Source: Mobula hypostoma
Lineage: Eukaryota
Length of the DNA: 64,000 bases
NCBI RefSeq assembly: GCF_963921235.1
Contig: NC_086097.1
Coordinates: 171,928,001 to 171,992,000 of the forward strand
Direction: 5' to 3'
The notes beneath the pieces were generated by a model, which saw only the letters and a list, made by a program, of their open reading frames with translations, did not search any database and was not told the origin of the DNA. Made by a program: the position numbers and the translations under genes. Position 1 is the first letter of the stretch. Every line of letters begins with the position of its first letter. Shown here in pieces: positions 33,721-39,022 of the stretch.

Positions 33721-35142
33721 CAGATTGGAGGAAAACAAAACTCAGAATGGAGTATAAGCCTACTTGGTTCAGAGATCATGGCATTGCTAACTAAGCCACA
33801 GCTGCTAGCACCAGCAATATCTCCTGGAACAGTGATTAATGGCTTCACCAACCTTTCCCTGAGGTACTACTCCAGTCAGTGCAGTGCTTACTTCCAATGT
33901 CTCCTCTTACCAGACCAGCCATCCTCAATGTCACACACTATCAACTCCTGTCAGAGCCACTAATTTACGCTTCACATCTGGAATTCATTTCTTTTGTCTG
34001 ACATTGGAACTGGGTCTGAGTGTGCTGGTTTGAACTGAGGGTTATTGAACTGTTGACTATCACTGCCACTTGACAGCGCAGTTGATTGGGAGCTGACTTA
34101 TGAGATGGTATATGGCTCTGTTTGATTTTGTCCTGCTTTTTACAAATAGAAGAGACAGTACAGGAGATGATTATGCCCATTGGCCTATAATGTCTATGCT
34201 GAACACAATGCTAGATTAAACTCATTTTCTTTTACCTGTACATGATCCATATCCCATCATGCCCTGCAATTCATGTGTCCATCTACAGCCGTTTGAACAC
34301 TACTGTCAGATCAGCTTCCACCAATCTCCTGGTAGCCTGCTCCAAGCACCCACCACTTTCGTTGTTTAAAAAAAACAACAGCAACATTCCCTATTTCACT
34401 TTCAATGTATGCCCTCTGGTATTTGACATTTCTATTCAAGGAGAAATAGTTTGATTGTCTACCCTACCTATGCCTCTCAAATTGTATAAACTTCTATCAG
34501 GATCCCCTCAATGTCCTCCACTCCAGAGAAAGGGTAATTAAATGCTGACTCAGCCTGCAACGCCCACACGTCTTGAATGAAGATAGAATAAGCTTGATAG
34601 ATAAATTTGTTAAAGGAACCTAATTATGCCATCTTGAAGCTATTCCTTAGGAATGAAGCATTCAATAATCAGCAGTCCGATTCTGCTACCATTCTTGATA
34701 GATCTCCCTACCCCATGGCCTCCAGCTTAGCTCCAAAAGACTGAAACTATTGTAAGGGATCTAAGCATTTAGGAAAATAAATATACACACTAAAAACTTC
34801 AGGGAGCAGCAGCTACTTGAAGCTTGGTTGCAGAGGTTCCAAATCCACTTCGCCACTGGTTCAAAGTCACACATAGTGAACCTGCTGCACTGAATGTTTA
34901 ATCTGCAGAATTACACTAATGATAGGGCACTTCGGGGATATTCAGTCCTGCAGAGATGTGTGTGTGGCTGATATATATAGAGAAGCACAGAGAGTGAGTG
35001 AGCAGGTGAGAACGAGTATGCGTGTGTCAGAGATAGGTTGGGGTAGACAACAGGAATTCTGCAGATGCTGGAAATTCAAGCAACATACATCAAAGTTGCT
35101 GGTGAACGCAGCAGGCCAGGCAGCATCTATAGGAAGAGGCGC

Positions 35143-35178
35143 AGTCGACGTTTCAGGCCGAGACCCTTCGTCAGGACT
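35143..35178 (-). ncRNA. Minimal hammerhead ribozyme (intact core), 3' repeat of the PLE
   Basis: AGTC CTGACGA AGGGTCTCGGCCT GAAAC GTC^GACT: stem I AGTC/GACT, CUGANGA and GAAA cores, stem II, palindromic ACGT stem III, GUC cleavage triplet. Confidence 0.9.
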
Positions 35179-35471
35179 AACTGAAGGAAGAGTGAGTAAG
35201 GGATTTGAAAGCTGGAGGGGGAGGGGGAGATGCAAAATGATAGGAGAAGACAGGAGGGGGAGGGATGGAGCCGAGAGCTGGACAGGTGATAGGCAGAAGG
35301 GGATACGAGAGGATCATGGGACAGGAGGTCCGGGAAGAAAGACGGGGGGGGGGCGACCCAGAGGATGGGCAAGAGGTATATTCAGAGGGACAGAGGGAGA
35401 AAAAGGAGAGTGAGAGAAAGAATGTGTGCATTAAAAAGAGTAACAGATGGGGTACGAGGGGGAGGTGGGGC

Positions 35472-38400
35472 CTAGCGGAAGTTAGAGAAGTCAATGTTCA
35501 TGCCATCAGGTTGGAGGCTACCCAGACGGAATATAAGGTGTTGTTCCTCCAACCTGAGTGTGGCTTCATCTTTACAGTAGAGGAGGCCGTGGATAGACAT
35601 GTCAGAATGGGAATGGGATGTGGAATTAAAATGTGTGGCCACTGGGAGATCCTGCTTTCTCTGGCGGACAGAGCGTAGATGTTCAGCAAAGCGGTCTCCC
35701 AGTCTGCGTCGGGTCTCACCAATATATAAAAGGCCACATCGGGAGCACCGGACGCAGTATATCACCCCAGTCGACTCACAGGTGAAGTGATGCCTCACCT
35801 GGAAGGACTGTTTGGGGCCCTGAATGGTGGTAAGGGAGGAAGTGTAAGGGCATGTGTAGCACTTGTTCCGCTTACACGGATAAGTGCCAGCAGGGAGATC
35901 AGTGGGGAGGGATGGGGGGGACGAATGGACAAGGGAGTTGTGTAGGGAGCGATCCCTGCGGAATGCAGAGAGAGGCGGGGAGGGAAAGATATGCTTAGTG
36001 GTGGGATCCCGTTGGAGGTGACGGAAGTTACGGAGAATAATATGTTGGACCCGGAGGCTGGTGGGGTGGTAGGTGAGGACCAGGGGAACCCTATTCCTAG
36101 TGGGGTGGTGGGAGGATGGAGTGAGAGCAGATGTACGTGAAATGGGGGAGATGCGTTTAAGAGCAGGGTTGATAGTGGAGGAAGGGAAGCCCCTTTCTTT
36201 AAAAAATGAAGACATCTCCCTCGTCCTAGAATGAAAAGCCTCATCCTGAGAGCAGATGCGGCGGAGACGGAGGAATTGCGAGAAGGGGATGGCGTTTTTG
36301 CAAGAGACAGGGTGAGAAGAGGAATAGTCCAGATAGTTGTGAGAGTCAGTAGGCTTATAGTAGACATCAGTGGATAAGCTGTCTCCAGAGACAGAGACAG
36401 AAAGATCTAGAAAGGGGAGGGAGGTGTCAGAAATGGACCAGGTAAACTTGAGGGCAGGGTGAAAGTTGGAGGCAAAGTTAATAAAGTCAACGAGTTCTGC
36501 ATGCGTGCAGGAAGCAGCGCCAATGCAGTCGTCGATGTAGCGAAGGAAAAGTGGGGGCAGATACCAGAATAGGCACGGAACATAGATTGTTCCACAAACC
36601 CAACAAAAAGGCAGGCATAGCTAGGACCCATACGGGTGCCCATAGCTACACCTTTAGTTTGGAGGAAATGGGAGGAGCAAAAGGAGAAATTATTAAGAGT
36701 AAGGACTAATTCTGCTAGACGGAGCAGAGTGGTGGTAGAGGGGAACTGATTAGGTCTGGAATCCAAAAAGAAGCGTAGAGCTTTGAGACCTTCCTGATGG
36801 GGGATGGAAGTATATCGGGACTGGACATCCAAGGTGAAAATAAAGCGGTGGGGGCCAGGGAACTTAAAATCATCGAAAAGTTTAAGAGCGTGAGAAGTGT
36901 CACGAACATAGGTCGGAAGGGATTGAACAAGGGGTGATAAAACAGTGTCGAGGTATGCAGAAACGAGTTCGGTGGGGCAGGAGCAAGCTGAGACAATAGG
37001 TCGGCCAGGACAGGCAGGTTTGTGGATCTTGGGTAGGAGGTAGAAACGGGAAGTGCGGGGTGTGGGAACTATAAGGTTGGTAGCAGTGGATGGGAGATCC
37101 CCTGAGCGGATAAAGTCGTTGATAGTGTGGGAGACAATGGCCTAGTGCTCCTTAGTGGGGTCACGATCGAGGGGTAAATAAGAGGAGGTATCCGCGAGTT
37201 GTCGCTGTGCCTCGGCAAGGTAGAGGTCAGTACGCCAGACTACAACAGCACCCCCCTTATCAGCGGGTTTAATAATAATGTTAGGATTAGTGCGGAGGGA
37301 GTGGAGAGCAGAGCGTTCCGAAGGAGTGAGGTTGGAATGGGGACAAGGTGCGGTGAAGTCGAGACGGTTGATGTCCCGTCGGCAGTTGGCAATAAAGAGA
37401 TCCAGAGCAGGCAGAAGACCAGAGCGGGGTGTCCATGAAGAAGAGGAGGGATGAAGACGGGAGAAGGGGTCATCGGTGGGGGTGGAAGAGTCCTTGCCGA
37501 AGAAGTAGGCTCGGAGACGGAGACGGCGGAAGAAAAGTTCCGCATCATGGCGAACACGGAACTCGCTGAGGTGTGGGCGAAGGGGGACAAACGTGAGGCC
37601 CTTACTGAGAACAGAGCGTTCTGCCTCCGACAGTTGAAGGTCGGAGGGGATGGTAAAGACCCGGCACGGATGAGAGCTGGGATCAGAGGGGGGAGGGGGG
37701 AGGCTGGGGGTGTCAATGGAGAGGGGAGGGTTGGGGTGAGAGGAAGATGGAGCCTCTGAGGGCCCAGGAGTTGACGGTGGGATCTGAGGAAGACGGGGCT
37801 GCGGAGTGGTGGTGGGGGAAGGGGAGACGGGAGTCACAACAGCAGCACATAAAGACCCGGCCTGGAGTTCAAGGCTGGAGTCGCAGTTGGTGGTTGCGCG
37901 ATCGCTTTGAATGTCTCCATGGTCGTTGCTGGAGTCTGGGTTTTGAATATGTCCTGAGGTGTTGGAGCCGCCGAGACCAACGGCAGGGGCCGCAACCGAA
38001 AGTTCATGCCTGCTAGCGTCGGGGCCGGCAGGCTCTGCAGTCCGTAGATGTAAGATCTTGCGATCTTTGCCTAACATGACAAAGTCAAAGAAACGGCGAT
38101 TGCAGGCGTGGATCCGACGGAGGATGAAATAGCGGGTAGGACCATTACAGACGGCGAAGAAAGTGTCCCGAAGGTGTGGAAGGGTCTGGGATAGGGACAC
38201 CAAGTACCTCCTCATGGCGGAGAGCGTCGCCTTCAGAGCTTGACGGGAGAAGCGGCGAGAGGCAGAGTCAATGAAATGTGAGTACCTGGGATCCTCAGAA
38301 GGTCCAAATTGAGAGGCTTGGAAACGAATCCTAAAACCAACTGGAGTAAGTTGGCGACGGAGGCACGTTCCAAGAAAGGATACATGGCAATGATAGCGAG

Positions 38401-38521
38401 TTTGAGTCAAAGTCTGGTCGAAAAGTTGAAGAGCCGAAGAAATCACAGATGGGGAGCAGTGAGAGATGGTTTCACTGAACTCCCGTCGAAGAGAGGATCT
38501 AAACTTCTTCGGTGTAGGCAT
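35472..38521 (-). pseudogene. PLE ORF (about 1016 aa reconstructed): N-terminal domain, RT, Cys motif, GIY-YIG endonuclease
   Basis: Likely ATG at 38521 (MPTPKK), LSKGLTFVP, KPADKGG, YLLPKIHK, YIDD and GVIYCVRCSRCGLLYIGET. Two frame lesions: TAG at 37142-37144 (CAG in the 4735 copy) and a 1-nt frameshift near 36553-36557. Confidence 0.92.
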
Positions 38522-38655
38522 CACCGGAAGAGGCTTCGCAGTAGTGAATTTAAACGCAAACAACAGGAATTCTGCAGATGCTGGAAATTCAAGCAACATA
38601 CATCAAAGTTGCTGGTGAACGCAGCAGGCCAGGCAGCATCTATAGGAAGAGGCGC

Positions 38656-38691
38656 AGTCGACGTTTCAGGCCGAGACCCTTCGTCAGGACT
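38656..38691 (-). ncRNA. Minimal hammerhead ribozyme (intact core), 5' repeat of the PLE
   Basis: Identical to 35143-35178; lies about 135 nt upstream of the likely ATG. Confidence 0.9.
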
Positions 38692-39022
38692 AACTGAAGG
38701 AAGAGTGAGTAAGGGATTTGAAAGCTGGAGGGGGAGGGGGAGATTGGGGTAGGAAGGGTAGCGATGGGGAGGCGAAAGGTGGAGGCAACAAAGGGCTGTA
38801 GATGGTGGAATCAGATAAGACAAAGCAGTGGACAAATGGGAACAGAGAGGTGGGCTGTGGGAATAGGGAAGAAAGATGGACAAGTACTGGGCTGAGGGCA
38901 GGTAGAGTAGGTGTGGGAACAGGGTGATGAGGGATGGAGGTTGGACACAACCAACGCTTTCCAGCTCTTGTTCTATCCCTTCCTCTCATCTCTATATATA
39001 GATGATTTCCTTCGACTTCTTC

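What the first reader, a model, noticed from the sequence alone, without database searches (positions are those of the whole stretch)
35047..38743. Complete Penelope-like element flanked by two intact minimal hammerhead ribozymes
Seen: a 184-bp direct repeat at both ends, a 9-bp TSD, and an RT + GIY-YIG frame. Each repeat holds AGTC-CUGACGA-stem II-GAAAC-GUC^GACU on the coding strand, and stem III is reduced to the palindrome ACGU. Established: PLEs carry minimal type I HHRs thought to cleave as dimers through a palindromic stem III. Inference: a transcript spanning both repeats could pair the two HHRs and release a 3513-nt unit RNA containing the whole ORF, possibly circularisable. The repeats look identical by eye and the frame has only two lesions, so the family is young.
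Basis: partly seen in the sequence, partly recalled or inferred. Interest (0 to 1): 0.8.

Follow-up and report, generated by a model that had tools for sequence, protein, structure and literature searches.

The report
Broken Penelope retroelement with paired hammerheads
This is a full-length but broken copy of a Penelope-type jumping gene, likely from a ray, whose two identical end repeats each carry a minimal hammerhead ribozyme motif predicted to cut RNA only weakly and in pairs, an ordinary layout for these elements that was described in 2014.

Summary
There are exact 184-bp repeats, a 9-bp target duplication and an RT + GIY-YIG frame with a stop and a frameshift. Each repeat holds a minimal type I hammerhead, with predicted cuts 3513 nt apart. 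It is a Neptune/Nematis-type Penelope-like element (PLE) of a large, mostly 5'-truncated family, likely in a ray.

The motif is under selection. It lies on the sense strand just past the ORF in 22 of 44 distant relatives (0 of 44 antisense), and its stems covary.

The architecture and the cut-and-circularise idea are both in print (Cervera and De la Peña 2014). This scan has also reported the same kind of motif before, in this genome and in a shark.

Corrections: (1) the insertion runs 84 nt before the first cut and 100 nt past the second, so a cut linear 3513-nt RNA cannot have been its template; (2) these hammerheads carry G·U at 10.1-11.1, where 22 of 23 aligned motifs have G-C, and are predicted to be masked in context; (3) the frameshift is shared with a second copy in the window, and there is a further missense change near the RT core. 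No RNA evidence for cleavage or circles was obtained.

The parts
38744..38752 (.). Target-site duplication, upstream copy (TTGGGGTAG on +)
38560..38743 (-). 5' pseudo-LTR, 184 bp, identical to the 3' one; begins 84 nt before the predicted cut
38655..38692 (-). 5' minimal type I hammerhead motif; predicted cut 38660/38659; G·U at pair 10.1-11.1; stem III reduced to ACGU
38693..38707 (-). End of a pyrimidine tract just upstream of stem I, predicted to pair with the hammerhead's 5' half and mask it (same in the 3' repeat, 35180-35194)
   Evidence: prediction only
38589..38639 (-). Short out-of-frame upstream ORF (16 codons) between the hammerhead and the main start
   Evidence: read; ATG positions; function untested
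37145..38521 (-). N-terminal part of the ORF from the likely start (MPTPK): conserved HxxFxxxCLxxxxxPxGF domain (38386), Pro/Ser-rich linker, KGLTF (37603), DKG (37261)
   Evidence: start inferred from relatives such as P0010 that begin at the same place
37142..37144 (-). Premature TAG; private or nearly private to this copy
   Evidence: 896,879 of 900,892 depth units in X1 carry another base; the inverted piece of copy 2 is open here
36558..37141 (-). RT fingers and motifs up to motif B; missense SRYT at 36816
   Evidence: 1,247,085 of 1,251,290 depth units carry another base at 36816
36553..36557 (-). One-base frameshift in a C run just before YIDD; shared with copy 2; rare in the family
   Evidence: (271,390 of 280,216 depth units differ at 36557, an inserted base is listed, 78 loose ends); relatives P0001-P0004 read through
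35877..36552 (-). RT motif C (YIDD at 36539) and thumb
35850..35876 (-). CX4CxxC zinc-finger-like linker (CKRNKCYTC), marker of Neptune/Nematis PLEs
   Evidence: definition in PMC8557442
35472..35765 (-). GIY-YIG endonuclease (VIYCVRCSRCGLLYIGET) with CCHH residues, to the stop codon
35231..35471 (-). Pyrimidine-rich 3' untranslated region outside the repeat
35047..35230 (-). 3' pseudo-LTR; ends 100 nt past the predicted cut, at the family's usual 3' end
   Evidence: 279 loose ends at 35047
35142..35179 (-). 3' minimal hammerhead motif; predicted cut 35147/35146
   Evidence: loose ends of diverged contigs pile at 35142 and 35178
35038..35046 (.). Target-site duplication, downstream copy
5174..7255 (+). 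Second, 5'-truncated copy of the same family (97.7% identical); its hammerhead has a change at core position G8; same frameshift; an inverted piece lies at 4735-4956

Best explanation
This is a recently inserted, now non-coding copy of a Neptune/Nematis-type Penelope-like retrotransposon, likely made when the family's endonuclease nicked the target and its reverse transcriptase began at a fixed internal site 100 nt past the hammerhead cut and copied an RNA that was likely still uncut at both hammerheads. Shown: the anatomy, the broken frame, the 9-bp duplication, that both ends of the insertion lie outside the two cut sites, a shared 3' end among copies, and selection on the hammerhead across the clade. 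Inferred: target-primed copying from an internal start (by analogy with the anole element); a read-through transcript of a donor that already had two repeats as the template; and that the hammerheads are real but weak, pair-dependent and probably protein-assisted ribozymes that trim a minority of transcripts rather than being needed for insertion. This copy cannot make the protein; at most it could be copied in trans.
For: The insertion is 3697 bp = one 3513-nt unit + 184, from cut-84 to cut+100, inside one duplication. 3' ends fall at cut+97 to +103 in 5 of 14 repeat copies in the window; the other 9 are decayed or belong to other families. 279 contigs have loose ends at 35047, some of which are simply the repeat running on into the 5' body. 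Depth falls about 100-fold from the 3' repeat to the 5' end, as expected of 3'-primed copying. The motif is on the sense strand within 500 nt past the ORF in 16 of 44 relatives exactly and 22 of 44 with at most one mismatch; 0 of 44 antisense. 64 cells with both-side changes versus 21 in shuffles, 0 of 500. Predicted masking and an unfavourable active dimer. PMC11167929: internal RT start, cleavage only with protein, uncut RNA the dominant substrate. PMC4209133: monomers inactive, dimers weak. PMC3846280: a rotifer PLE with 218-bp repeats, an in-frame stop and a 9-bp duplication.
Against: Nothing here distinguishes an uncut linear template from a re-ligated circle; both give this DNA. In the anole element the RNA had to extend about 55-60 nt beyond the RT start (minimal 3' end +172, start +111-118). 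A donor that ends at the start site would lack that stretch at its 3' end, which is a difficulty for the linear model. Nearest-neighbour energies ignore the non-canonical core and tertiary contacts, so they under-rate active hammerheads. Strong conservation of the motif argues that cleavage matters at some step. Clade membership rests on motifs, not on a tree with named references.
Confidence: 0.55

Rival explanations
1. Circle model: the two hammerheads pair through ACGU and cut, the 3513-nt unit is ligated into a circle, and the RT starts at cut+100, runs once round and 184 nt further, which creates both repeats in one pass.
For: It explains a 1.05-unit insertion inside one duplication, and the identity of the repeats including alleles that are in the minority in the family (35086: about 14%; 35212: about 45% of X1 depth). 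It supplies the sequence downstream of the RT start. The motif is conserved with covariation. Proposed in PMC4209133; circles are shown for short retrozymes with canonical hammerheads (PMC7229834).
Against: No circle of an autonomous PLE appeared in the passages read. The active dimer is predicted about 10 kcal/mol above two inactive hairpins, before the cost of closing a 3.5-kb loop. G·U at 10.1-11.1 occurs in 1 of 23 motifs, this one. Anole hammerhead mutants insert normally in vitro and no reads end at the cut. Naiads thrive without canonical hammerheads.
Confidence: 0.2
2. Partial tandem by re-priming: after copying the body, the RT jumped to the repeat/ORF junction of the same or a sister RNA and added a short 5'-truncated second copy, which is the 5' repeat.
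For: Pseudo-LTRs are described as partial tandems of variable length (PMC2377424; PMC8557442). Copy 2 is a composite insertion whose inverted piece differs from its main piece at 3 positions of their 34-nt overlap, so multi-template events occur in this family.
Against: The junction at 38560/38559 continues the 5' body seamlessly and the repeats share minority alleles. A random family RNA as second template is therefore unlikely; the jump would have to be to the same donor's RNA.
Confidence: 0.15
3. In this subfamily the hammerhead is a dead or nearly dead passenger: a change at position 11.1 and an upstream hairpin silence it, and the family multiplied anyway.
For: G·U (or a shifted A-U register) at the pair that is G-C in 22 of 23 motifs. 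The same base is in copy 2, and no hammerhead position is among the 40 best-supported differences shown for X1 and X9 (171 rows hidden), so it is probably the family's majority state. Stems are predicted unformed in context.
Against: All core bases and stem I are kept. Diverged contigs stop matching exactly at the stem I borders (275 and 265 loose ends at 35142 and 35178), so the motif is the conserved island among this genome's families. A G·U pair still closes stem II. I found no paper giving the effect of this change.
Confidence: 0.1

Closest known systems
Minimal hammerheads (min-HHR) in the pseudo-LTRs of metazoan PLEs (Cervera and De la Peña 2014, PMC4209133; parts 1-2 of 4 read)
   Same: Type I motif in both repeats about 3 kb apart, no loop 3, palindromic 15.2-16.2, extra base between 9 and 10.1, 4-5 bp helix I, thousands of solo motifs, dimer-and-circle model; reported for Xena, Poseidon and Neptune of fishes.
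   Different: Cartilaginous fishes are not named in the parts read; helix II is 4 bp here (7-8 in Schistosoma); G·U replaces the 'highly conserved' G10.1-C11.1.
Neptune/Nematis clades of endonuclease-bearing PLEs (as defined in Craig et al. 2021, PMC8557442; passages read)
   Same: Single ORF, RT then C-terminal GIY-YIG with CCHH, CX2-5CxxC linker, DKG, pseudo-LTRs, inverted 5'-truncated companions (copy 2).
   Different: ORF of about 1016 codons because of a Pro/Ser-rich insert (relatives mostly about 890-960 aa, some 1000-1130); the target is a G-rich 9-mer, not (TA)n.
Poseidon of Anolis carolinensis (Frangieh et al. 2024, PMC11167929; parts 1-2 of 4 read)
   Same: Hammerhead in the repeat; fixed 3' end downstream of the cut, matching an internal RT start.
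   Different: Different clade (no linker zinc finger); there the ORF starts inside the hammerhead and the 3' end lies 111-118 nt into the ORF, whereas here the likely start codon is 138 nt past the cut and the 3' end lies before it.
Pen2a_Av of Adineta vaga (Arkhipova et al. 2013, PMC3846280; passages read)
   Same: [quoted passage not shown]
   Different: It has a third, inverted repeat and its repeat includes the first codons of the ORF.
Non-LTR retrozymes (PMC7229834, passages; bioRxiv 10.64898/2026.07.22.740005, part 1 of 5 and passages)
   Same: Type I hammerheads in repeats; proposed to derive from PLE repeats; found in the one cartilaginous fish sampled.
   Different: Short non-coding tandem units, with canonical hammerheads and demonstrated circles in the cases tested; this is a 3.5-kb coding unit with minimal hammerheads and no demonstrated circle.

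Membership tests
Endonuclease-bearing Penelope-like element | Single ORF with PLE-type RT followed by a C-terminal GIY-YIG endonuclease | tested here: met
   one frame broken by two lesions, relatives unbroken
Endonuclease-bearing Penelope-like element | Pseudo-LTRs made of the 3' end duplicated at the 5' side | tested here: met
Endonuclease-bearing Penelope-like element | DKG motif, N-terminal lysine-glycine motif (KGLTF here) and CCHH in the endonuclease | tested here: met
   motif list from PMC8557442
Neptune or Nematis clade | CX2-5CxxC linker between RT and endonuclease | tested here: met
   CKRNKCYTC at 35876
Neptune clade specifically | RT groups with named Neptune rather than Nematis elements in a tree | not testable with these tools
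   No named reference PLE proteins were returned; the vertebrate PLEs sampled in the 2026 preprint were Neptune or Poseidon, which favours Neptune
Penelope/Poseidon clade | No linker zinc finger | tested here: not met
   linker present
Naiad/Chlamys | Endonuclease N-terminal to the RT | tested here: not met
Minimal type I hammerhead (min-HHR) | Core CUGANGA, GAAA, UH | tested here: met
Minimal type I hammerhead (min-HHR) | Helices I and II, extra base after A9, palindromic 15.2-16.2 without loop 3 | tested here: met
Minimal type I hammerhead (min-HHR) | G10.1-C11.1 pair (typical, not in the published descriptor) | tested here: not met
   G·U here; G-C in the other 22 of 23 motifs
Minimal type I hammerhead (min-HHR) | Covariation of stems across related elements | tested here: met
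   motifs were picked with a descriptor that demands 3-bp stems, so the antisense and in-ORF controls (0 of 44 each) carry the weight
Minimal type I hammerhead (min-HHR) | Self-cleavage as a dimer | not testable with these tools
   needs a bench assay; folding predictions are unfavourable but not decisive
Rfam hammerhead families | Score above threshold | tested here: not met
   no hit at E up to 10 or at gathering scores
Non-LTR retrozyme | Short non-coding tandem units | tested here: not met
   3.5-kb unit with an RT-endonuclease frame

The most novel reading that the evidence does not exclude
This copy is the DNA fossil of a reverse transcriptase running once round a ribozyme-cut, re-ligated 3513-nt RNA circle. 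The upstream pyrimidine tract is a switch that keeps the hammerhead shut unless the RNA starts, or is spliced, right at stem I or the element's protein opens it. An autonomous vertebrate retrotransposon would then replicate through a viroid-like protein-coding circle, and this very abundant ray family would be the place to catch it.
Probability: 0.2. Interest if true: 0.65.

Novelty: new member of a known kind. Interest (0 to 1): 0.22.

Why it matters
As it stands it is a clean, ordinary example of a known architecture in a little-studied lineage. It matters only as material for an open question: whether PLE hammerheads cut in vivo and whether pseudo-LTRs come from circles or from uncut tandem RNA. 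A family this abundant, with a fixed 3' end and near-identical copies, would let a genome-wide count of 5' ends and allele matching between repeats test that. One copy cannot decide it.

Tried and rejected
- Rfam: no hammerhead hit; minimal motifs fall outside the models.
- Genome-wide copy survey: no genome is held, so copy number, 5'-end distribution and allele matching between repeats were not measured.
- Raw reads X21 and X22 laid 0 reads, which is no test.
- No RNA holder listed on record. X9 is only guessed to be RNA and is kept as contigs. Its depth follows the DNA pattern, it shows no sharp ends, and none of the 15 joints shown (961 hidden) uses the possible splice acceptor before stem I. 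This is no evidence for or against cleavage, splicing or circles.
- Viral contigs: 0 pattern matches; 0 of 17 candidate stretches confirmed.
- Programmed frameshift at 36555: rejected. Relatives P0001-P0004 read straight through, and about 97% of X1 depth at 36557 has another base, with an inserted base listed.
- Upstream in-frame ATG at 38599 as the start: rejected as unlikely; copy 2 and about 86% of X1 depth lack it, and relatives start at MPT.
- Selection between the two window copies: 12 synonymous of 31 changed codons against 28% expected, P = 0.14, consistent with neutral decay.
- Intron ending at stem I, as in D. virilis Penelope: a pyrimidine tract plus AG is present, but I saw no convincing donor in the 3' UTR by eye, and a tract ending in AG at stem I is not evident in the 14 relatives printed. 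Left open.
- Dimer energies used stem I pairs shifted by one base and were discarded; one search has the corrected values.
- Lünse et al. 2017 is not held; only its title and a review's account were seen.
- Searches for a paper on ray or shark PLE hammerheads listed none, but most subscription journals and Repbase are not covered, and supplements of the papers read were not opened.
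Full report
Observation. On the minus strand the element spans 38743-35047. Its ends are identical 184-bp repeats 3513 bp apart, flanked by a 9-bp duplication that matches at no other length from 5 to 19; chance by local composition is about 1.4e-5. Each repeat holds a type I hammerhead core with stem III reduced to ACGU and predicted cuts at 38660/38659 and 35147/35146. A minimal descriptor finds 3 such motifs in the window and 0 in 60 simulated windows. Rfam finds none.

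The protein. The frame runs 38521-35472 and is broken by a TAG at 37144 and a one-base shift at 36557-36553. Pfam hits to RVT_1 and GIY-YIG are weak and below cut-off. A search with the stop read as X gave 382 relatives among 7997 candidates scored; named top hits are from Mobula (90% identity over 43% of the query), Hemitrygon, Hypanus, Chiloscyllium and Stegostoma, so the host is likely a ray (inference). The N-terminal domain aligns from the first residue with an unnamed full-length relative. DKG, YIDD, a CX4CxxC linker and the GIY-YIG/CCHH residues are present. By the definitions in PMC8557442 (passages) this is a Neptune- or Nematis-type PLE; no tree with named references could be built.

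The family. A second copy lies at 5174-7255 (97.7% identical over 2083 columns) with an inverted piece at 4735-4956. About a dozen older repeat relics lie elsewhere in the window. In run X1, 359,546 contigs were laid on the element: 82,431 at 99% or more, 122,169 at 95-99%, 133,878 at 90-95% and 21,068 below. Summed depth falls about 100-fold from the 3' repeat to the 5' end, so most copies are 5'-truncated; this is not a copy number. Words of the element are held by runs of five coded organisms, four of them at a share of 0.45 or more.

The lesions. The stop and the SRYT change are nearly private to this copy (99.6% and 99.7% of X1 depth differ). The frameshift is rare in X1 (271,390 of 280,216 depth units differ at 36557), and relatives read through it, yet copy 2 has it too. 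The two copies also share several other minority alleles (for example at 35232, 35790, 36207). They may descend from an already broken donor copied in trans, or both C runs may be assembly errors. Differences between the copies look neutral (12 synonymous of 31, P = 0.14). Zero differences between the repeats bound their divergence at 1.6%: the insertion is recent, the wider family is not uniformly so.

Is the hammerhead real? Of 80 related loci fetched from metagenomes, 55 whose match reached residue 340 or further were scanned and 44 had at least 400 nt downstream. Sixteen of 44 have an exact minimal hammerhead on the sense strand within 500 nt of the ORF end, 22 with at most one mismatch and 24 with two; the antisense strand gave 0 of 44, and the coding region 0 of 44 under the strict descriptor. 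Twenty of 44 have none, and several loci are the same family. On 23 motifs (2 from the window; duplicates and two-mismatch cases left out), 90.5% of cells pair and 64 show both-side changes against 21 in shuffles (0 of 500); slid controls pair at 16-38%. The motifs were chosen by a descriptor that demands stems, so the strand control matters more than the shuffle. Independently, diverged contigs in X1 stop matching at 35142 (275) and 35178 (265), the stem I borders. The motif is therefore under selection across the clade.

Is it active here? Not shown. This copy alone of 23 has G·U at 10.1-11.1. The active dimer is predicted at -11.5 kcal/mol against -22.0 for two inactive hairpins; in context both stems have probability about 0.00 because the upstream pyrimidine tract pairs with the 5' half. 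They rise to 0.35-0.56 only if the RNA begins at 38695-38692. These models under-rate hammerhead cores (own knowledge). No usable RNA data were obtained.

Mechanism. The insertion begins 84 nt before the first cut and ends 100 nt after the second, inside one duplication. A linear RNA cut at both sites cannot template it; the template was uncut, circular, or used twice (deduction). The 3' end is shared: cut+97 to +103 in 5 of 14 window copies; in four relatives with inverted arms the element ends 54-83 nt past the cut. This matches the internal RT start shown for the anole element, where cleavage needed the protein, was not needed for insertion, and no RNA-seq reads ended at the cut (PMC11167929, parts 1-2 of 4). 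I therefore favour an uncut template and a weak, assisted ribozyme (0.55) over a circle (0.2), re-priming (0.15) or a dead passenger (0.1). The circle is not excluded: it explains the matched repeats and supplies the RNA downstream of the RT start that the anole enzyme needed.

What is known. PMC4209133 (parts 1-2 of 4) describes minimal hammerheads in both repeats of metazoan PLEs, including Neptune of fishes, finds monomers inactive and dimers weak, and proposes cutting, ligation to circles and more-than-unit copying. A review repeats this (PMC6765202, passages). PMC3846280 (passages) shows a rotifer copy with about 200-bp repeats, an in-frame stop and a 9-bp duplication. PMC2377424 (passages) treats pseudo-LTRs as partial tandems with an internal promoter. 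Circles are shown for short retrozymes (PMC7229834, passages). A 2026 preprint finds retrozymes in the one cartilaginous fish it sampled (part 1 of 5 and passages; its supplements are closed). Lünse et al. 2017 could not be read. Searches listed no paper devoted to ray or shark PLE hammerheads; supplements and Repbase, which I did not see, may list this family. Earlier notes of this scan report the same kind of motif in this genome and in a shark; they are leads, not support.

Verdict. Real, correctly described, and a new member of a known kind. The additions are modest: the template constraint, the G·U variant with its predicted masking hairpin, and the frameshift shared by two copies. Interest 0.22.

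Noticed in passing
window 4323-4734, 4735-4956, 5174-7255, about 7256-7356: Copy 2 is a composite insertion (inverted piece, 217 bp of other sequence, 5'-truncated body) sitting between a Tc1/mariner-like transposase frame and what looks like its terminal repeat. The Tc1 label is recalled, from no call. The two PLE pieces differ at 3 positions of their 34-nt overlap, which suggests two templates.
   Followed up: partly
window 36553-36557 and about 5741-5745: The same rare frameshift in two copies 31 kb apart that differ by 2.3%: either a broken donor mobilised in trans or a repeated homopolymer error in the assembly.
   Followed up: partly
window 48988-49783: An 800-bp fold-back (89% self-complementary) of a second, related PLE family, with outward-facing hammerhead repeats at 49083 (-, intact, G-C at 10.1-11.1) and 49688 (+, core changed).
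   Followed up: partly
window 38693-38743 and 35180-35230: The pyrimidine tract before stem I ends in CAG and TCAGTT, which could be a splice acceptor or an initiator; D. virilis Penelope has an intron ending at helix I. Removing the tract unmasks the stems in folding predictions.
   Followed up: partly
window 39016-39100 and 38744-39015: The element inserted about 270 bp from an older opposite-strand repeat relic, into a G-rich rather than AT-rich target.
   Followed up: no
window 43055 (-) and 43058 (+): Two decayed hammerhead repeats back to back on opposite strands.
   Followed up: no
run X9, joint 35534 to 35104: A contig joins the end of the ORF to a downstream part of the repeat through 26 other letters, like a short tandem unit of about 450 nt (retrozyme-like); one row, not checked.
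   Followed up: no
L043:260-3406, L056:310-3726: In two distant relatives the first ATG of the ORF lies inside or just before the hammerhead, with a TATA-like box about 75-80 nt upstream; this ray element has no such box in its 5' repeat.
   Followed up: no
L006/L007:6213-6251, L063:2012-2056: Hammerheads with A in place of G12 in three loci (two distinct motifs), probably decayed or variant cores.
   Followed up: no
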